Positions 5,703-23,900 of a stretch of DNA of 64,000 nt are shown piece by piece. Origin of the DNA: Eremomyces bilateralis CBS 781.70 (lineage: Eukaryota); assembly GCA_010015585.1 (NCBI GenBank), contig ML975153.1, one strand, 5' to 3'. The notes beneath the pieces are model-generated. The model ran no database searches. It was not told the origin of the DNA and saw only the letters and a program-made list of their open reading frames with translations. The translations under genes and the position numbers were made by a program. Positions within the stretch are counted from its first letter, which is position 1. Every line of letters begins with the position of its first letter.

Positions 5703-6957
5703 ATGGTCCAAATCTCGGTCCTCCTCACGAGCGTTGCTGCTCTGGCAGCCGCATCCCCCGTGACCAAGCAGCTTCAGAGCCGGGAATCTTGCCAAGGACA
5801 GAGCTGCATCATCGCAGACGTCGCTCGCACCACCGGCCGAGCTCCCATCAACCCGAACGGTCCCAATCAACCTGAGGGGGGTAGTAAGGAGGGTAACAAG
5901 TGCATCGCGGACTATATCGTTCAATTGAACAATGAATGCCGTATCCCAGTGGGCTCTAGAACTGATAAGGACGGAAATTCTTTGCCCGCAGTAGCAGGCT
6001 GTGAGTCCAAGTCTCCGGCCACGCCAGGATCCAACTCGTCTGGCAGCACTGGCAGCACTGGGAGCACTGGGAGCACTGGCAGCACTGGAAACACTGGAAG
6101 CACTGGAAGCACGCAAAGCGCTGGAAGTAACTCTGCAGGCACAGGTGGGGGCGACTTTGCAGGGAGTTCAACCAGTGGTCTTGGAAGCGTTAGCGGCGGT
6201 GGTCTTGCTGGTCTACTCGGTGGGAGTGGTAGCTCGAGCTCGAGCGGTCTCAGTTCGCTCTTCGGTGAGCAATTTCCTCTTGACGTTCCCACCCGATGTA
6301 ACTACGTTGAATCGGACTGACTTCTGCTCCAGGCGGCCTATTCGGAAAGCGAGAGGAAGCCAATGCCGAAAAACGTCAACTCTTTGGTGGTGGAAGCTCA
6401 TGCACCCCATATCGGGTCATCTACGCCAAGGGTACCACGGAGATGGGCGAATTAGGATTTACCGTCGGTCCGTCGCTTAGCTCGGGACTCAGCGGGCGAG
6501 ATTTCACCGTCGATGGTGTGGACTACCCCGCCGATATGGACGGAATCAACTGTCTTGGTATGGAAGGCGGTATTATCGCCATGAAGATGCTGGAGAACGC
6601 CGTGGCCCAGTGCCCAGAGCAGAAGATTTTCATGTCGGGCTACAGCCAGGGTGCCATGGTTGCCCGTGAGGCAGTGGCATTTGCACGACCCGAGGCTCGC
6701 AAGCAGGTTATCGTAAGCGCTCCCGATTCCTTCGATTGGATGGGTTCCACTGACCATAGTTTTAGGGCGTTGTCACATTTGGAGATCCGTTCAATGGGTC
6801 ACCGATTGCGGATTTCGACTCCAGCAAGATCAAAATCTTCTGCTCTTCCTCTGATGGAGTGTGCAAGGGGGAGTTTTCTATCAGCCTTGGGCATCTGGGA
6901 TATGTTGGAACCTCCACTACTCAGGCCGTCTCGTGGATCAAACAGCAGGCTCGCTGA
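5703..6957 (+). CDS. Secreted cutinase-family (CE5) esterase with long Cys-containing, Gly/Ser/Thr-rich N-terminal extension, ~377 aa
   Basis: Signal peptide MVQISVLLTSVAALAAASPV. Exons 5703-6264, 6333-6712 and 6766-6957. Motifs VIYAKGTTE, GVDYPAD, nucleophile GYSQG, VVTFGDP and CSSSDGVC...GHLGY (catalytic Asp/His). Confidence 0.88.
6042..6113 (+). repeat. Coding 9-nt tandem repeat (GGMAGCACT-like x8) encoding (GST)n linker
   Basis: ggcagcact ggcagcact gggagcact gggagcact ggcagcact ggaaacact ggaagcact ggaagcacg. Confidence 0.9.
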
Positions 6958-7094
6958 GGCTAAGGGGAAGTCGAGAGTTAACAAGAAGTTCTTTCAGTAT
7001 GTAAGAAGGCATTAGAATGCTGATTCAATTGCGGCTGCGTGCGTTGCGAAATCATTAAACCTATTCCCTGCGCCTGTCTATGCGTCGAATTAAA

Positions 7095-8602
7095 TCACTC
7101 CTCATATAATGACCGTCCTAGCCTATCATTTGCTTCAATAAACCTAGTCTGTATTAGCATGCGTTGGATGATGACAAGGTGAAAATGCTTACGAAAACTG
7201 GTGCTCCAAAACCCCTTCCCCCCCTTTCTCCAAATCGATATTGTATACGTAGAAAGCCCCAGCACTTGTGACGACCATCAACTGTGGGGTATTGTTTCTC
7301 ATCGCCACAACAGTTCGAACCGGACCACCACCCTCCCCAAGATTTGGTGCAGTGCTCCGCGGAACCTTGACCCAAGCGAAGTCGCGCTGCGGCTCCCAGA
7401 TCTCGGTGACGGCGGTTGGAAGATAGGTCCCCAGGGAGGAAGCGAAAGTCTTGGTCATGTTCTGAGACGTTCTTCGAATCATCGATGCGAGGGTGGGATT
7501 CAGCGGTTTCCTTTCCGCTGCGGCTGTAGAGGCACCGATCGACTCATAATCCATGCTCCCTGAGTCGATATGGTCTTCGCTACTGATCGATGCGCTTCGG
7601 TCTCGAGTAGGAGAGAAGGTCGGGGAGCGGGGTGAGGAAGTTGCCGAGCCGGGTCGACTGGATGCCTTTTGCGGAGAGACCAATCGGAAGATGTGAACGG
7701 TTTCCGTCGCGGAGGAGACGCAGAGCAGCGAAGAAGTCGCGTTGAAGGACATGCTGAAGATCCTGGCGGGGATGGAGCCGCGCCGAAATTGGAAGAGTTT
7801 CTGCGCGAGCGGAACGGAGAAGACGCGGATGATCGTCCCCTTCTCGGACGCCGTCGCGAGCAAGTTGCCTTCGCCGTTCAATGACACGCAGGACAACGGA
7901 GTCTGATGTGCCTCGACGACGTTCACAGCTTCCATCTTGGTGGCATCGAAGATCATCACTTCGCCAGTGGTTGGGGCAACATGTGTCCCAGTCGGCGGGG
8001 TGTGTGACGGCGGAGCAAATGGAGAAGGGGCCACTTTCTGAGGCAACGGATATACCAAGTAGTTGTTCTCTGATGACGATGAAAGTGCGCAGATAGCTGT
8101 ACCTCGTCAGTGACCAACCCAATCTATCTCAGGTAGTCCTACCGTGTGGATTTGGTGAAGTTTCAATTCTGCGAATCAAATTCATGTTACTGATGTCATA
8201 GACGTAAATGGAGTCCTCAAGGACCACAACTAAGCGCTTTCTGTTCATACGGACGGCAAGAACACGTGACGGAAAGGTGAGGTCGCATATTGTCGATTGA
8301 CGCTAGAGATGATCAGTGGATTTGGAAGTATAGTATGGATTGCTTTACCTTTGTATTCTGTATCCGCAATAATCGCGGAGACAATACTAACGCCACCAGA
8401 GACGTGGAGAACAACATCTCGACAAGGGAGATGTCTCCTTCATTGGTCTCAAAGTGCTTCTCAAATGGCTCGGTGGTGTATTGTCGGAATCCTTTGGTAG
8501 TTCCTATCCACCTTAACACGTCGAACTGAATATGAGCAGGCGCAACAAACCAGCGGATATGTAACTATAGTCTTGATTGAAGGTAACATAATTGAGCGCC
8601 AT
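7095..8602 (-). CDS. ATG18: Autophagy PROPPIN WD40 protein Atg18, ~439 aa
   Basis: [45 protein letters not shown], phosphoinositide-binding [14 protein letters not shown] and PQRDFAW. Introns at 8504-8550, 8303-8348, 8097-8142 and 7144-7192 give an open 440-codon frame. Confidence 0.95.
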
Positions 8603-9143
8603 GATGGCGTCGAGGTATGAATAGCCAATATCAGACCTAATTCGGTCAAGATATCGCAAGGTTGCAGCTTCACGGGAGTCGGCTGGGATAGCCTACTTGT
8701 TGGGAGGCAAGTACCTCACGACAATATATGAGAGCTCTGCGATGCCAAAGTCGCGAAGAGAATATCCCTTGCTCTTATCCAGGAAATTTAATTTAGCCAA
8801 ACCTTCAAATATGCGATTTCTGTCTTTGTCAGAAGGTGGAAGGTGGCGGGAGCCTGTTCGAGGTTCGATGGTGGTGGAGTTCCAGAAGCTCGATAATTAC
8901 GAGAGATGTCCGTAGATGTCGCTATTGGTAGCTTTAGCCCGCCGTACTCAGGTTAATCACCTAATTCGAATGACGAAAATATTTGTCCATCCTAGACTTT
9001 CTTGACTGGAGACTCGGAAGGAATGGCACCTTTGATGGATCTTGCAAATCATCATGGAGGACTTGATTGAAAAGAGCTAGGGCTTTGCTTCGTGATAGAC
9101 CAGTGTTAAACCTCCCCTTGTCCAGAGTTGCCTGGAGATCACA

Positions 9144-11250
9144 ATGAAACGTCCGATGGAGACTTCTTCAACTATAAAGGCATCGAGCCGTGATGAAGCC
9201 ATCATCGGCACTAATGACTACAGCATTGTCTCTAAACGCAGCGTTGAAAGGCTCTACAATGCCGACGAATCGGAGTTTTTGCATCATTTTGTTCCAAAGT
9301 TTAAGAGGCGAGCTCCGGCCATCAATAGGGGTTACTGGCTTCGTGTGCACGCGATTGAGTTCGTGGTCCTGCGATTTTTGGAGGAGTGCCGCCAGGCAGG
9401 AAAACAGGTAGCTGTTGTGAATCTCGGATGCGGTTATGATACTCTTCCGTTTCGGACGAGATGGAAAGCACCACAGCTATGCGGGGACTGCGTATTCGTC
9501 GACGTAGACTATCCGAGTCTTATCCAGCGGAAGGCGGAGAAGATCCGAAGGGAGAATTTGTTCGGGTTGACACCTACGACTGGTACGGCCTCTGAAGCCG
9601 TCAGTCTTGAAACGGAAGAAGGATACTATGCAGTGGGCTGCGATCTGCGGCATCCGGAGCGACTTCAGCAAATATTAACGGATGAACTTGGTTTACATGG
9701 AAGACATTTCATATTTCTTGCCGAGGTATCATTAGCGTACGTGGACTATAACTACGCGAATACGCTCATCGATAAGCTCAGTAGCATATCAAATTGTATG
9801 AACTTTCCAAAAGCCATGTCCCACGGGACCAAGATTGTAGCTAATGTCACTCACAGCACGTTTCTGCATCCTGGAGCAGTACCTCCCCGATGGGGAAGGC
9901 CATCCCTTTGCGCAGGCGATGCTCAACCACTTCGAAAAAACCGCGCCCCTGAAGCAGATCCGAAAATGCCCGTCGCTCGCTGCCCAGGCTGCGCGATTCC
10001 GCCAAAACGGCTGGACGTCCGTTCAAGTTGAGAACCTTTGGAACCTCTGGCAAAATGATGAATTCCTCTCGGGAGAGCAGAGGACTGCGCTGGACAAGGT
10101 GGAGCAATTTGATGAGTGGGAGGAGTTCGCCTTGTTTGGCGCGCACTATTTCGTGTTGGTTGCCGGGAACTACGATTTAGGCCCGCTGTTACCCATATTG
10201 CCCCAACACAATGATCATTTGGGTGCTGAAGCGCCGCCAGTCCAAAGCGCTCTTGCATGGCAGCACTTCCAGGCGCCAAAAGGCGCTGGGCTTCGACGAT
10301 ATGGGGCAGTGATACCCCACAGTGCGCAGCTTGTCTCCTTTCACGGAGGCCAAACCTCAAGCGCGAAGCAGGGGAACTACGACACGTACAGCTGCAGTTC
10401 TCCAGCTCCTGATCTACCCGGCCCTCCAGAATGTCTGTCCAGCCACACCATAACGGAATGCGGTCCCGACACCTATTTGTGTGTCGGTGGACGGACAACC
10501 CCGAGCAAAGCACGATCTGCATGTTGGCTTGGAGTCTCAGATCAATGGACTCCCGTTGAACACCTCACTCCGGGTCGATATCGACACTGCGCAGTCCCAG
10601 TCCATCTACCCACCGAGCAAGGCGTCCTTGTTTTCGGCGGCAGGACTGGCGATGGCATAGTGCTTGGCGAATGGGCACTGTGGACTGGGTCGTCCGGCTG
10701 GCGACGTTTGACATGCCCCATGGATGAGCCCCAGCCGAGATTTAGCGCCACGATGGCATGCAGCGGGTTGACCGATGGTCTCTTGATGGGAGGCCTTTCT
10801 GCTTCTGGCACCGTGTTCCATGATTGCTGGAGGTGGACGCTGGATGGGTTGCAAGTATTGGCAGAGAGAGTCTCGGAATCCGTCCTCCCGAAACAGATTG
10901 AATGGACACGGTTTGGTGCAAGCCTTGTTGCGTCAGACAAAGGCTTTGTTCTCATTGGCGGGGTGGGAGCGAACGGCATAATACCAGAGATGGATGATGT
11001 TGTTTGTATATCCAAAGCGCTGCACTTCACCCGTCTTCCACTGGTATCTGGACCGACTCAGAGACCTTTACTTGTCGGACACGGGGCTGCTCTAGTTAAG
11101 GATGGCAGTCTCCTAATAGTAGGTGGGGGCGCTATATGTTACTCGTTCGGCGCCTTTTGGAATCCGGGGATCTACATGCTGTCGACATCAAGGGGTGTTC
11201 AAGAATGGTTCCTGGATGCTACCCCAGCTACAACCGAAGTGCAAGCTTAA
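9144..11250 (+). CDS. PPM2: Leucine carboxyl methyltransferase 2 / tRNA wybutosine-synthesis protein 4 (LCM + Kelch), ~681 aa
   Basis: GTNDYSIVSKRSVERLY, RRAPAINRGYWLR, VVNLGCGYDTLPF, VDVDYP, AEVSLAY and FDEWEEFALFGAHYF, followed by Kelch repeats (GGR, RYRH, GGGAICYSFG). Intron 9796-9856. Confidence 0.92.
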
Positions 11251-12170
11251 AACGGCTCTATCCAGCCTCTAAAGGAACGTTCGGGCGATGGACGGGCTAT
11301 GAAAGAGGAGGATATTGTCTCAGATCTCGACGTAGGACAGATCCCCTGTAACGAGCCCAGTGTTGCTACACGGCGTTGAGTTTGGTTCCAGGCAAGAGAA
11401 TTAGACAACCGAGTGCCTGCTCGGCCGAATTGGACGAGACACAAAAGCCGTCATCCACCCCACTCCAACCCGAAAGCTTGATTTCGTCCAAAAGATCTTC
11501 CAATATCAGACACTGCCCTTCTCGATGTTATCGAGTACCGAGCATGTCTACCTCCGCTCTCTATCCTGTCGATGCCAACGAAACAGGTCGCAGACATTTT
11601 CAAGCACTTTCCTCCCATCGCCCCAGACCTTGCCCTCCTACCTTCTCTACCCACCGTTGACAAGGGCACTGCCCCGTCCTCCGCATCTCCGGGAACGTCA
11701 CCATGTGACTCCATCACGATGCCACGGCAACCATCCTCACCCAATGGCGCAGGCGGAAGATAGTCTCTCTATTCCCTCCGTTGGATGTCGATCGGCTCCA
11801 CGTCGCCTCTGAACATCATCGCGAGTTCCGAGGCTCTTGGGGAACGGAGCTGGGTGGTGCGGTGAAGATGTTTTTCGGGGCTTGGAGGGATATGCGACGG
11901 GACGGGATATCTACGGCAACGGGGATCTGGAGGCCTATGAGATCGGGCGCAGGGAGATTCGGTGATGGTGAAGGGCGCGGAGGATGGTGGCACTTCGTGT
12001 TGTAACAAGTAGAACTGGCGTCACGCAGTCAACGGCCGGACGTTGGATCCTCAAGCGGGGGTGGGGAATGGCTATTTGCAAAAGACCAGGACAGCGTTGA
12101 AGGAACTACCGAAGGAACTGGTAGATTTCTATTCCCGTCGGCTGGCTAAGGAACTCCGGACTCGACGGAT
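11251..12170 (+). pseudogene. Decayed JmjC (TYW5-like/cupin) domain remnant, apparently the former C-terminus of PPM2
   Basis: Colinear fragments across frames: PVLLHGVEFG..EN*TTECL..IGRDTKAVIH..LDFVQKIFQYQTLPF..HVYLRSLS / PTKQVADIFKHFPPIAPDL / PVLRISGNVTM*LHHDATATILTQ..KIVSLFPPLDV / AVKMFF / GYATGRDIYGNGDLEAYEIGR / LPKELVDFYSRRLAKEL. Stops at 11402-11404 and 11706-11708, plus at least 4 frameshifts. Confidence 0.8.
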
Positions 12171-12427
12171 GAGCTGCTCCATCCACTCCAAAACACCATC
12201 CTGTACCTACACATCAATAGGACTGCCCTACACATGTTCACAGATCGAGAGAAAAAACCACGTTTCCTTCGAAGTGTTACTCGTTCATTACTGATGGTAC
12301 ACCATTGATGCTCGGGAGAAATTATCCTTCTCCGCCCAACGTGAATGTTTTTCAACTGCAGTGTATACACATCTTCTATGCTTCGTGATGCTGAGAACTC
12401 GTGACATGCCACCGATACCCGTCGCGC

Positions 12428-13514
12428 TCACAGGAAATAGTCGGGCGTTCGTCGGGAGACCATAGGCTCGCCCGCCCGCGGACATGGGTCGAATTGCAAG
12501 CTGGGGGGGATGTTAGGATGCGGATGGAGGAGTCGAGCGACGGGGACTTACAAAGTATACTTCAAGTGCTCGTCTATTTCCATGATTGCGGCCTGATTTC
12601 CGCAGCGATAACAGTAGTTCGGTGCTATTTCGCGTTAGTAATCGATGAGCGAGCCGCAAGAGCGGTGGCATACCTGAAAAGATGGTAACGACATTCCGGT
12701 CTTGAGACCAATTATACCCTTCCATGACCAGCTGGTGCGCACGCGCGACCAATGTCAGCCCGTTGTTATGATTGAATGCCTCCGAGATGTCCTGGCCGAA
12801 CGTGTACCCGGCGCCGCGCGGGGAGATCCCCCATCCGCATCGATCATCGGGATCCGACCACAGCAGATCGCACATAGGACCCTCATGCGGGACCTCCTGT
12901 ATCCGATCCAGGGCGCGGATGTTGTCGAGGGTGTCGATGCTCGGGCTCAGGCCGCCGTGCAGGCAGAAGATCTGATTGTTGATGAGGGCGGTGAGGGGAA
13001 GGTAGTCGAAGAGGTCGGTGAAGAACTTCCAGACGTTGGCGTTGCCATACTTGCGCAGGCACTCGTCGTAGAAGCCGTACACCTGGGTGATCTGGCGGGA
13101 CTCGTGGTTGCCGCGGAGGATAGTGATACGTTGGGGGTAGCGGATCTTCAGGGCGACGAGGAGGGTGACGGTCTCGACGGAGAAGTAGCCGCGGTCGACG
13201 TAGTCGCCCATGAAGAGGTAGTTGGTGTCTGGGTTGGGCCCGCCGATCTTGAAGAGTTCCATCAGGTCGTGGAATTGGCCGTGGATGTCGCCGCACACGG
13301 TTACGGGGCATTTGACGGGTTGCACGTTGGACTCCTCCTGGAGAACTTCTCGAGCTTTATCGCACAGCCGTTCGACCTCTGCCTCCGATAACTGCTTACA
13401 GCTCATGAGGCTGTCGATCCACGAGTCTAGGGTGTTGATGGAGGCGGGTTCGGAGTTGGACGTGATTTGTTGGACTTCCGGGGATCTCCCGACGTCTTCC
13501 ATGTTGGTATCCAT
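12428..13514 (-). CDS. PPH21: Serine/threonine protein phosphatase 2A catalytic subunit (PPH21/PPH22/pphA-type), ~328 aa
   Basis: [31 protein letters not shown] and C-terminal RRTPDYFL. Introns 12625-12673 and 12501-12551. Confidence 0.96.
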
Positions 13515-13940
13515 GGTTATATTCGAACTCTCAGTAAATACGGGCAACGAGGCCGAAAGATCAGTGGTGACACCTCGAAACGGGACGGCGTGTGGATTGA
13601 ATTAGGTGGGTTGTGGTGTGAGGCCTGGAGGGAAGGGGGGAGCGATTGGGCATGTAGTAGCTGTACGTGGGTGATCGGAGAGGAGTTGAATAGACCTAAG
13701 CGTCGCACAAGGAGTCAAGGGTATCGCGAATGACGGGAAAAGAGACGATGGCAGCAAGAAGGGTGGATTATGTTATGGGGTTGACGACATGTTTTCGGAC
13801 ACAATCACATCAATCTGGACGAGTAGCGTCAGCCAGGAGCTGCCATGAATTCGGGGAGACGATTTTCCGTTCCGGAGACATGATCCAATCAACGTAGCGG
13901 AGATCTCCCGTCACAAGGCTGGAGTAATGGCTTGCTGCCT

Positions 13941-20900: not shown

Positions 20901-23900
20901 CAGCGGCTTCATCTTTGCGAGCTTGGCCTGTTCCGCTGCCTCTTCCTTCTCCTTGCGCTCCGTTTCCTCCTGCTCCTTCCGCTCCTGTTCTTCCTTCTCG
21001 AGGCGTTCTTGTTCCTCCTGATCCAACCGCTCCTGTTCTTCCCTCTCCTGTTCCTCCTGTGCTTTCCGCTCCTTTTCCTCCTTCTCCCTCTCCTTCTTCG
21101 TCTTCGCTTTCGGTGTTGTGCTGGAGCCCCAACTGAACATACTACTCTTCTTGGGTTCTTCTTTCTTTTTCTTCTTCTCCTCTTCGGGGGCGGGTTCGGG
21201 CTCAGGGGGATCTTCGAGCACAGGGTCGTCAAGGATCGCCCAATCGGATACCTTTGACTTCTTTTTCTTCTTGCTGTCTGTCGATGATTTGGTGTCGGTC
21301 CTGAGAAGCTCATCGAGCATGTCTTTGGGTTCCTCAGCTATCGGTTCTTCTTCAGCGACCTTGGACTTCTCGCTGTCTTTGGTCGACGTCTTCGTCAGCT
21401 TGGCACCTTTCTTGCCCTTCTTGCCTTTGACGGGCGCCCCCCATAGGTCGTCGGCAGGCGGCGGTTCAACGGACTTTGGTGGTGGAACGTCCTCTTCAAC
21501 TTCATCGGCCAGGGGCACTGGAGGTGCTTCGATTTCCTTGGTCGCTTTCTTGGCAGCGGCTTTGCGCTTCTCCTTTTTGGTCATCATGACGAATCCTTCG
21601 GGCTCCTCATCCGCCTGACTTTTGACATCGTCGGGCTTTTGGGTCTCGATCTTACTGGCGTAATCGTCTACCACTTCAACCGGATCATACTTGCTCGTCT
21701 TCTTGGATTTCTTGTCCTTTTTCGATGTTGTTTTGAACCCAGAACTGAACAAGTCGTCGTCGCCGCCATTGCCTTCGTCAACCGCATCGGGCTTCATGGT
21801 TCGGGCGCTGTCGTGAGATGTGTATTTCTCAAGCGAGTCTTCCTGTTTACTCCCGATCAAGTCAAGTAGATCATCCGACTCCTTTGCGGCCGCTTTCTTG
21901 GTTTTGTCATCCTTTTTGCCTTTGGAACCCCAAGAAAATCCGGAGGTCAGACCCCAGAAGCTGCTGCTAGCCTCCTCCGGCTCCCCCTTGTCTTCCTCCT
22001 CGGCAATATCAGGAATCTCCGGAGGGGGATCTTCGTCTGGAATCGATGCGTTGGCGATGGAGTTGCGTTTCTTCTTCTTGTCAGCTTTGCTCTCAACTTT
22101 CGGCGGATCATCCTTTTCCACGATCGGCTCCTCGACCGCAAGGGATTTTTTGCCTTTCTTCTTTGACTTGATCGAGCCCCATGCATCCCCCCAGTCATCT
22201 TTATCTTCCACTTTCACGGGCTCCGGTTCGGGTTCGGGATCGGGATCCGGGGCCTTGGTGGCTTTGGACCCTTTCTTGCCCTTCTTTCCGACAGTCGGGG
22301 TAGGCGCCCAATCATCGAAAGTCATTTCGGGCTCAGGCTCGGGCTCGGGAACAGGTTCGGGTTCGGCAGGTTTGACCGGTTCGGGGGCTGATTTGCCCTT
22401 CTTCTTACTCTTCTTGCTGCTGAAGCCCCAGGTGTCATCCTCAATCTTCGGTTCTTCCTCTTTCGGAGGAGGCAACAGCTCTTCTACCTCCAAAATGGCA
22501 TTCTTGCCCTTCTTCTTGCCCTTCTTGCTGGTGGTGAACCCCCAGGCGTCGTCCTCAACCTTGGGCTCCTCTTCTTTGGAAGGGGGGGGTTCTTGGACCT
22601 CCTCGATGACATTCTTTCCTTTCTTCTTACTCTTCTTGGTGCTGCTGAAACCCCATGTGTCTTCCTCAACCTTAGGCTCTTCCTCTTCGGGAGGAGGCTC
22701 TTCAACCTCCTCGATGTCATTTTTGCCCTTCTTCTTGCTCTTCTTCGTACTAGTTGCCCAGTCATCCTCCTCTACCTTGAGTTCTTCTTCTTTAGGAGGA
22801 AGTTCTTCGACCTCCGCAATGACATTTTTGCCCTTCTTCTTACTCTTCTTCGTGCTGAACCCCCAGCCGTCGTCCTCAACCTTAGGCTCTTCTTCTTTGG
22901 GAGGGGGAGGTTCTTCGACCTCCGCGATAACATTCTTGCCCTTCTTCTTGCTCTTCTTCGTACTGAATCCCCAGCCATCGTCCTCAATCTTGGTCTCTTC
23001 TTCTTTAGGAGGGGAAGGAGGAGGTTCTTCGACTTCCAGGATGGCATTCTTGCCTTTCTTCTTGCTCTTCTTGGCACTGGAACCCCACAGGTCGTCCTCA
23101 ACCTTGGGCTCTTCTTTGGGAGGTGGGGGGTCTTCGAACTCCTCGATGGCGTTCCTCCCCTTCTTCTTCTTTTTGTCAGCCTTGGTTGTTGTCCCCCAGC
23201 CAGAAGAACCCCAGATATCGGTCGAACTTTTGCCATCGGCTGCAGCCGCCACAGCAACGTCTTTGGTCGTATCGGGCTCATCATCTTCGAGAAAGCCGAA
23301 GCCTTTCTTTTTGTCCTTCTTGGAGACGCCGCCTAACCCCCAAGGGTCGGAAGCCTTCTCCTCCTTTTTACTCTCCTCCTCTTCCTCCTCGAAACCAAAG
23401 TCAAACCCAGTAGATATCGTGGTCTTGTTCTTCCGAGTCGAATTGCCCCAAGAAAAGCCCGCGTCCTCCTCCTCGTCCTTCTTCTTATTGTCGTTGCCAT
23501 CCACGCTATCCCAGAAATTGTCGCCAAACGTGGATGTCTTTGGCTTGCTCTCCTCCGCGCCACCAAGGCCCCACTTGGAAGATCCCCAACCGCCCCCGCC
23601 CCCGCCCCAGCCAGAGCCGAAGTCGAGGCTCGATTTGGTGTTGCCGCTGTCGAGACCGAGATCACCAAGTTTAGGTGCGTCATCGTCACCGTTCTTAGGA
23701 GACGAGGCATCGTCCAAATTGATGTCCATGAACTTGTTCGTATCGGCCGGAGGAGGGTCTTCCTTCTGGCCCTTTTTGCCCTTCTTCTTCTTCTTGCTGG
23801 CCGTGGTTCCCCATCCGCCAAAATCGTCCAACGGATCCGCCTCCTTCGCCGCCTCGGCAGCCTTTGCAGCCTCCTCCTCTTCTTCCTTCTTCCGTCGTTC

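What the first reader, a model, noticed from the sequence alone, without database searches (positions are those of the whole stretch)
11248..12170. PPM2/TYW4 has lost its fused JmjC hydroxylase domain, whose decayed copy remains directly after the stop codon
Seen: the LCM+Kelch frame is intact and ends at TAA 11248-11250. The next ~900 nt still encode a colinear JmjC domain (YLRSLS, PVLRISGNVTM*LHHD at the HxD iron-ligand position, LFPPxDV, GRDIYGNxDLxAYE, FYxxRLAxEL). It is broken by two nonsense codons at likely Trp positions (TAG 11402, TGA 11706), several frameshifts and an apparent deletion around the distal His ligand. Known: in many filamentous fungi Ppm2/Tyw4 carries a C-terminal JmjC domain related to TYW5, the hydroxylase that makes hydroxywybutosine at tRNA-Phe position 37, whereas S. 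cerevisiae Ppm2 lacks it. Inference: this lineage recently reverted from the fusion to a yeast-like enzyme and should make yW rather than OHyW, unless another JmjC gene compensates.
Basis: partly seen in the sequence, partly recalled or inferred. Interest (0 to 1): 0.8.

Follow-up and report, generated by a model that had tools for sequence, protein, structure and literature searches.

The report
Fungal tRNA enzyme lost hydroxylase domain
In this fungus a two-in-one tRNA-modifying enzyme has kept its first activity but lost its second (an oxygen-adding domain, whose broken remains still sit behind the new stop codon), a clear and well-preserved example of a kind of loss already known from yeasts.

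Summary
PPM2/TYW4 (9144-11250, one intron, 681 aa) is intact and matches yeast Tyw4 end to end (TM 0.78-0.82; Arg88/Tyr229 equivalents kept). Behind TAA 11248 lies a colinear relic of the fused TYW5-type JmjC hydroxylase (172.8 bits to a profile of fungal orthologues). It has four more stops, about five frameshifts and a deletion of about 114 nt that removes the distal iron-binding His. A spliced RNA contig from a second study carries the same lesions, so the relic is real and transcribed, with no rescuing intron. No other TYW5 was found in the genome, while TYW1, TYW3, two TRM5/TYW2 genes and tRNA-Phe(GAA) G37 are present. The organism should therefore make wybutosine, not hydroxywybutosine (inferred, not measured). 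Decay is about 0.14 substitutions per site; no close relative was available to date it. Repeated loss of this hydroxylase is in print for yeasts and other lineages (Iyer 2010). Similar short gene models in Penicillium, Trichophyton and Ceratocystis suggest it also recurs in filamentous ascomycetes (DNA not checked). Verdict: a real, new member of a known kind.

The parts
9144..9795 (+). PPM2/TYW4 exon 1, LCM methyltransferase domain (N-terminal part, with the Arg88 and Tyr229 equivalents of yeast Tyw4)
   Evidence: Pfam LCM E 3.2e-19; alignment to 2zw9; exon end from the RNA joint
9796..9856 (+). 61-nt GT..AG intron
   Evidence: skipped in RNA contig of run X3, present in DNA run X1; splice signals printed
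9857..11250 (+). PPM2/TYW4 exon 2: rest of LCM domain, Kelch propeller, short linker, TAA stop 11248-11250 (protein 681 aa)
   Evidence: Pfam Kelch; identical to the 681-aa named record P0121; AlphaFold2 pLDDT 86, Foldseek TM 0.78-0.82 to yeast Tyw4
11251..12162 (+). decayed relic of the former linker and TYW5-type JmjC hydroxylase domain with its C-terminal helices; now non-coding, covered by an RNA contig
   Evidence: tblastn, frameshift-aware alignment, profile score 172.8 bits, RNA contig
11402..11404 (+). TAG at a conserved Trp
11706..11720 (+). TGA at the conserved Trp, followed by the retained His-x-Asp iron ligands (His codon 11712, Asp codon 11718)
   Evidence: His160/Asp162 of human TYW5 from PMC3045595 and alignment
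11769..11870 (+). stretch shortened by about 114 nt; the distal iron-binding His motif is absent in all three frames
   Evidence: the motif is present in 117 of 120 homologues
11963..11971 (+). two further TGA stops (11963, 11969) in the helical C-terminal part
12428..13514 (-). convergent neighbour: PP2A-type phosphatase catalytic subunit (introns 12501-12551 and 12625-12673); context, not part of the relic
   Evidence: Pfam Metallophos; introns from RNA joints; stop read; the PP2A label is recalled from its C-terminal motif

Best explanation
The ancestor carried the usual filamentous-ascomycete fusion LCM methyltransferase + Kelch propeller + TYW5-type JmjC hydroxylase. In human TYW5 chemistry the JmjC part hydroxylates yW-72 at tRNA-Phe G37 before TYW4 finishes the base. 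A nonsense codon became fixed in the variable linker just past the last propeller strand, which leaves a complete yeast-like Tyw4. The JmjC coding DNA, no longer under selection, decayed neutrally and is still transcribed, most likely as a long 3' UTR. Shown: structure of the gene, lesions, transcription cover, intact upstream pathway genes, no second TYW5 found. Inferred: Trm5, Tyw1, Tyw2, Tyw3 and the shortened Tyw4 make plain wybutosine (yW), and OHyW is absent. Which lesion came first cannot be told; any lesion inside the JmjC part would also spare LCM + Kelch. The reason for the loss (relaxed selection most simply) is not shown.
For: Relic colinear and single-copy. Highly conserved columns (>=90% in 75 homologues of 980-1150 aa) kept: LCM 53 of 57, Kelch 49 of 54, JmjC 49 of 80 with 8 gapped, i.e. 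68% of ungapped, below the lowest intact homologue (72%). A neutral simulation gives that drop at about 0.14 substitutions per site and predicts about 4 stops (5-95% range 1-8) against 5 seen. The RNA contig of X3 (spliced; a different sample and study from X1 by the tool's codes) shows no listed difference or joint in the relic. The protein covers yeast Tyw4 residues 23-692 of 695, keeps the Arg88 and Tyr229 equivalents and folds like it. TYW1, TYW3 and two TRM5/TYW2-family genes have open frames, and two tRNA-Phe(GAA) genes have G37. The other five Cupin_8 loci match JMJD5, JMJD7 or histone-demethylase types.
Against: No nucleoside measurement. None of the papers found shows directly that the fungal fused domain makes OHyW; it is a prediction (PMC2938197) supported by human TYW5 biochemistry (PMC3045595). 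The genome search scores only its best candidates, and the assembly's completeness is not given. The RNA sample may be the same strain, and contigs drop rare variants and give no strand. The window protein keeps slightly fewer conserved LCM/Kelch columns than the median homologue (91-93% vs 98%), which could mean some relaxation of the remaining enzyme.
Confidence: 0.82

Rival explanations
1. The domain is lost as described, but the shortened Tyw4 works poorly, because it relied on the JmjC helices for dimerisation or tRNA binding, or because the long 3' UTR destabilises the mRNA (nonsense-mediated decay, recalled). tRNA-Phe would then carry partly yW-72.
For: In human TYW5 the C-terminal helix bundle drives dimerisation and tRNA binding (PMC3045595 passages). 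Conserved-column retention in LCM/Kelch is a little under the median. The relic adds up to about 0.9 kb after the stop.
Against: Yeast Tyw4 has the same two-domain build. The 681-codon frame is open while the neighbouring 300 codons collected about 11 lesions, so the first part is still under selection. Its median identity to homologues equals that of fused peers (LCM 47%, Kelch 37%).
Confidence: 0.1
2. Another JmjC enzyme in the genome took over the hydroxylation, so OHyW is still made.
For: Five other Cupin_8 loci exist, three of them (JMJD5-like and JMJD7-like) in the wider clade that holds the yW hydroxylase (clade per PMC2938197). L003 is only a weak JMJD5 match (best E 1.7e-12).
Against: Their longer matches to fungal TYW5 domains are only 22-35% identical, best E about 1e-10, against about 47-52% among true orthologues. 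None lists human TYW5 near the top (3al5 last for L002, absent for L001 and L003). Searches with a fused orthologue and with a JmjC-only fragment find only the relic for the JmjC part.
Confidence: 0.04
3. The lesions are sequencing or assembly errors, or recent degeneration of one cultured strain.
For: Only one species' data were available; X1 may be the source of the assembly and X3 may be the same strain.
Against: DNA and RNA contigs from two studies match the window without a listed difference across the relic. The flanking coding frames are open. About a quarter of otherwise invariant residues are replaced, beyond the lineage's background, plus a deletion of about 114 nt, which is far more than culture drift.
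Confidence: 0.02
4. The domain is restored at RNA level by splicing, A-to-I editing of stop codons to Trp (recalled from sexual stages of other ascomycetes) or read-through.
For: Two stops fall on Trp codons.
Against: About five frameshifts and the deleted distal His cannot be edited back. The RNA contig shows no joint and no other letter in the relic. No GT..AG intron with a branch signal spans TAA 11248 in the range tested.
Confidence: 0.01

Closest known systems
Saccharomyces cerevisiae Tyw4/Ppm2 (PDB 2zw9, 2zwa, 2zzk; PMC2685095)
   Same: LCM + Kelch propeller only; alignment covers residues 23-692 of 695; Arg88 and Tyr229 equivalents kept; TM 0.78-0.82
   Different: Here the former JmjC DNA is still readable behind the stop; the yeast locus was not examined for a relic
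Fused Tyw4-JmjC of filamentous ascomycetes (described in PMC2938197; A. nidulans AN0128 in PMC4949671; A. oryzae and Trypanosoma brucei in PMC4417183)
   Same: Orthologous and colinear over all three domains, 35-49% identity in the retained part
   Different: The JmjC part is cut off by a stop and has decayed
Human TYW5 (C2orf60, PDB 3al5; PMC3045595)
   Same: The intact fungal domain matches it at E 2.5e-39; the relic keeps the His-x-Asp pair and the D-x-YGN-x-D stretch
   Different: Distal His (His235 equivalent) deleted, frame broken: not an enzyme
Repeated losses of the yW hydroxylase (PMC2938197: basidiomycetes, ciliates, land plants, several yeasts and arthropods; bioRxiv 10.64898/2026.06.06.730616: tyw2-tyw5 pseudogenes in Antarctic fishes)
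   Same: Lineage-specific loss of OHyW capacity; visible pseudogene decay in the fish case
   Different: Loss of one domain from a fusion in a Dothideomycete, with the rest of the pathway kept

Membership tests
TYW4/LCMT2 (Ppm2) | N-terminal LCM-type SAM methyltransferase domain | tested here: met
   Pfam PF04072 70 bits vs cut-off 22.3
TYW4/LCMT2 (Ppm2) | Complete C-terminal Kelch-type propeller (absent from Ppm1/LCMT1) | tested here: met
   aligns to yeast residue 692 of 695; whole-chain TM 0.78-0.82 to Tyw4, 0.31-0.40 to the Ppm1/LCMT1 entries listed; a separate PPM1-like gene lies at L009
TYW4/LCMT2 (Ppm2) | Catalytic Arg88 and Tyr229 equivalents | tested here: met
   alignment (positions counted by hand from it); roles from PMC2685095 passages
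TYW4/LCMT2 (Ppm2) | Converts yW-72 to yW on tRNA-Phe | not testable with these tools
   needs LC-MS or yeast complementation
TYW5 JmjC hydroxylase (as ancestry of the relic) | Sequence orthology to fused fungal TYW5 domains and position behind Kelch | tested here: met
   172.8 bits to the fungal profile; colinear
TYW5 JmjC hydroxylase (as active enzyme) | His-x-Asp iron ligands | tested here: met
   codons 11712 and 11718 retained, but behind stops
TYW5 JmjC hydroxylase (as active enzyme) | Distal His iron ligand | tested here: not met
   deleted; absent in all three frames
TYW5 JmjC hydroxylase (as active enzyme) | Open reading frame, fused or stand-alone | tested here: not met
   5 stops and about 5 frameshifts, also in the RNA contig
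Wybutosine pathway | TRM5, TYW1, TYW2, TYW3 and tRNA-Phe(GAA) with G37 present | tested here: met
   which of L016 and L018 is TRM5 and which TYW2 rests on my reading, as Pfam gives one family for both

The most novel reading that the evidence does not exclude
Loss of the hydroxylase domain by a stop in the Kelch-JmjC linker is a recurrent event across filamentous ascomycetes (this Dothideomycete, a Penicillium group, Trichophyton, Ceratocystis, perhaps Aspergillus wentii in mid-decay, and unnamed Dothideomycete ORFs). That would give a set of independent natural knock-outs paired with fused sister lineages, in which the long-open question of what the hydroxyl on wybutosine does (frameshifting at Phe codons, retroelement load) could be tested comparatively. 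This locus would be a case where the loss is caught with the relic still readable and transcribed.
Probability: 0.6. Interest if true: 0.5.

Novelty: new member of a known kind. Interest (0 to 1): 0.33.

Why it matters
It predicts a different tRNA-Phe position-37 base (yW rather than OHyW) in this fungus than in most filamentous ascomycetes, and it shows how the yeast-type enzyme can arise from the fusion by a single stop codon. Paired with a fused relative, it offers a direct LC-MS test of the prediction that the fungal fused JmjC domain is the OHyW hydroxylase; I found no direct test of this in fungi in my searches. It is modest in surprise, because the enzyme is known to be dispensable and repeatedly lost.

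Tried and rejected
Dating the loss with a close relative failed. The best non-self proteins are 42-49% identical; the metagenome scan gave 8 loci at 33-36%, of which 7 show the JmjC part downstream and one (L057) ends too early. Run X4 (organism B, same species label) laid only on the phosphatase gene, with 142 other letters over about 1,090 bases, and not on PPM2 at 80% likeness; X5 laid nothing; neither blank is evidence. No dN/dS was possible without relatives' DNA. Short homologues were mostly not losses: 100 of the 120 listed carry the start of the JmjC domain and are exon fragments, and most of the other 20 stop inside or at the end of the Kelch part, probably at introns. A repeat-induced point mutation signature was not seen: relic GC 55.7% vs 55.9% in exon 2, TpA/ApT 0.56 vs 0.50. 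Conserved linkage of PPM2 to the phosphatase or ATG18 gene was not seen in 8 of 8 metagenome loci (some have little flank). The careful tree did not finish, so only the quick tree was used, on 52 rows that I chose from the 240 proteins then held. A first script to find the TYW3 intron returned nothing through a faulty start search; the junction was read directly (59-nt GT..AG, in frame). One search was too broad and listed nothing relevant. Three look-ups of earlier scan findings gave nothing on this gene. The supplement of PMC2938197, which may list the fungal losses species by species, was not read.

Full report
The observation. The + strand carries a two-exon gene, 9144-9795 and 9857-11250; the 61-nt GT..AG intron is skipped in an RNA contig. 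Exon 1 matches Pfam LCM and exon 2 Kelch families. The product is identical to a named 681-aa record, P0121, of Eremomyces bilateralis, placed in Eremomycetaceae, Dothideomycetes (PMC4150071, passages). The frame closes at TAA 11248-11250, 29 residues after the last conserved Kelch motif. All 120 listed homologues of 815 aa or more (of 287 found; the length filter favours fused forms) carry Cupin_8, and 120 of 120 match 11200-12300 by tblastn at a lenient cut-off.

The lesions. A codon-level frameshift-aware alignment to four of the closest homologues shows a colinear relic to about 12162. It has stops at 11402 and 11706 (both Trp in 4 of 4), 11963 and 11969, and frameshifts near 11350, 11567, 11635-11665, 11873 and 12017-12059. 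A further TGA at 11658 is in frame under one of the possible frameshift placements. Read through with X at the breaks, the relic scores 172.8 bits against a profile of the 120 fungal domains, with profile positions 179-232 unmatched. The distance between the motifs flanking that gap is 90 nt against a median of 204 and a minimum of 186 nt (107 of 120 homologues measurable), and no distal His motif is left in any frame; 117 of 120 homologues have it. An intact homologue matches human TYW5 at E 2.5e-39, whose iron ligands are His160, Asp162 and His235 (PMC3045595, passages).

Are the lesions real? Three listed runs hold the stretch, from two studies; two may be the assembly's source. Four runs were laid. 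X1 (DNA) spans 8900-13700 in one contig without difference. X3 is RNA, shown by three spliced introns. One 4,451-nt contig runs from 9024 to 13635 with 0 other letters and 0 gaps in its four pieces, across PPM2, the relic and the convergent phosphatase gene. So the relic is covered by transcript sequence and has no rescuing intron in the majority form. Contigs give no strand and drop rare variants, so whether it is the PPM2 3' UTR is inferred, and X3 may be the same strain.

Is the remaining enzyme sound? It aligns to yeast Tyw4 residues 23-351 and 438-692 of 695. The residues I count as equivalents of Arg88 and Tyr229 are kept; these are the proposed catalytic residues, and R88A fails to complement (PMC2685095, passages). 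The AlphaFold2 model has pLDDT 86 and pTM 0.89, and its six best Foldseek matches are Tyw4 chains at TM 0.78-0.82. Among columns at least 90% conserved in 75 full-length homologues, the window keeps 53 of 57 (LCM), 49 of 54 (Kelch) and 49 of 80 (JmjC, 8 gapped). Median identity to homologues equals that of fused peers in LCM and Kelch but is 38% against 47-52% in JmjC. A neutral simulation turns the drop (0.68/0.92) into about 0.14 substitutions per site, with about 4 stops expected (range 1-8) against 5 seen. This is a rough figure under an assumed transition bias. The Kelch-region terminal branch is 0.83 changes per column, so the loss lies late on this lineage, but it cannot be dated.

The rest of the pathway. 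The genome holds TYW1 in an open frame of 738 codons, TYW3 in two exons joined in frame by a 59-nt canonical intron, and two TRM5/TYW2-family genes with open frames of 497 and 463 codons (my reading is L016 = TRM5, L018 = TYW2). Two of the 30 tRNA loci fetched (of 42 matches) are tRNA-Phe(GAA) with G at 37. The Cupin_8 scan gave 6 matches: the relic and five others. These are JMJD7-like (L001), JMJD5-like (L002, weakly L003), a PHD/JHD-bearing demethylase type (L005) and a JMJD6-like gene (L004; label recalled). Searches with a fused orthologue, a JmjC-only fragment and the relic's DNA return only the relic for the JmjC part.

Mechanism. Human TYW5 hydroxylates yW-72 but not yW, before TYW4 acts (PMC3045595). 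Without it, yW-72 goes straight to Tyw4 and becomes yW, as in yeast. Shown here: the gene anatomy, the decay, the pathway inventory. Inferred: the product on the tRNA. Rivals (impaired Tyw4, a substitute JmjC enzyme, artefact, RNA-level repair) are each weak for the reasons given in their entries.

Comparison with what is known. The fusion and its absence from Saccharomyces were described by Iyer et al., who also report losses in basidiomycetes, ciliates and land plants and multiple independent losses among yeasts and arthropods (PMC2938197; passages and section 7 read, supplement not). The fusion is noted for A. nidulans (PMC4949671, passages) and for A. oryzae and T. brucei (PMC4417183, passages). 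Pseudogenisation of tyw2-tyw5 is reported in Antarctic fishes (bioRxiv 10.64898/2026.06.06.730616, passages). PMC11797069 mentions the A. fumigatus orthologue once and no wybutosine species. My searches listed no paper on this locus or on loss of the domain in a filamentous ascomycete; the library lacks most subscription papers.

How unusual is it among filamentous fungi? In the quick tree the window sits in an unresolved group with Aulographum, Trichodelitschia, Venturia and unnamed proteins, all fused except the short ORF P0132, which nests among fused ones. Named models that end in the linker with no JmjC piece exist for five Penicillium species, two Trichophyton, three Ceratocystis and one Apiospora species. 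In Penicillium and Trichophyton, unnamed ORF calls end at the same stop as the named models. A caution: A. wentii has a 719-aa model plus separate 208- and 131-aa JmjC models and a 943-aa joined one, so short models can reflect split annotation or partial decay. I could not see the DNA behind any of these. Of 119 new representatives, 85 carry a JmjC piece; many of the other 34 look like yeast-type proteins or fragments.

Verdict. It is a new, well-documented member of a known kind of loss, useful as a test case and not very surprising: interest 0.33.

Noticed in passing
window 12428-13514 (-) and 9024-13635: The PP2A-type catalytic subunit gene lies tail to tail with PPM2, a paralogue of the PP2A methyltransferase PPM1, and one RNA contig spans both genes, so their 3' ends overlap or abut. 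The linkage was not seen in 8 distant metagenome loci; the PPM1-like gene lies elsewhere (L009).
   Followed up: partly
P0263, P0378, P0379, P0380 (Aspergillus wentii records): Ppm2 is annotated as 719 aa plus separate JmjC pieces, or as a gapped 943-aa model; the JmjC part ends at profile position 270 of 314. Possibly a second case of decay in progress, or an annotation split.
   Followed up: partly
P0185, P0143, P0244, P0246-P0248 (Penicillium); P0261, P0373, P0374 (Trichophyton); P0274, P0381, P0382 (Ceratocystis); P0280 (Apiospora); P0132, P0286, P0161 (unnamed): Ppm2 proteins ending just past the Kelch domain with no JmjC piece: candidate independent losses; DNA not seen.
   Followed up: partly
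run X4 on window 12423-13516: Organism B carries the same species label as X1 but differs by 142 letters and 11 gaps over about 1,090 bases of the phosphatase gene, so it looks like a different species.
   Followed up: no
window 22393-23168: Tandem array, period about 105 nt, about 7 copies, 75% matches, inside a region of strong AT skew (18-24 kb); looks like a coding repeat on the - strand.
   Followed up: no
window 5703-7015 (+): Cutinase-family match (Pfam E 7.3e-14) preceded by an ORF with a Gly/Ser-rich 9-nt repeat at 6040-6127.
   Followed up: no
window 7189-7956 (-): PROPPIN (ATG18-like, label recalled) gene upstream of and divergent from PPM2.
   Followed up: no
P0107, P0356, P0357; P0103, P0256: Intact fused homologues with variant residues beside the His-x-Asp pair (Val between the ligands, or Cys before the His).
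   Followed up: no
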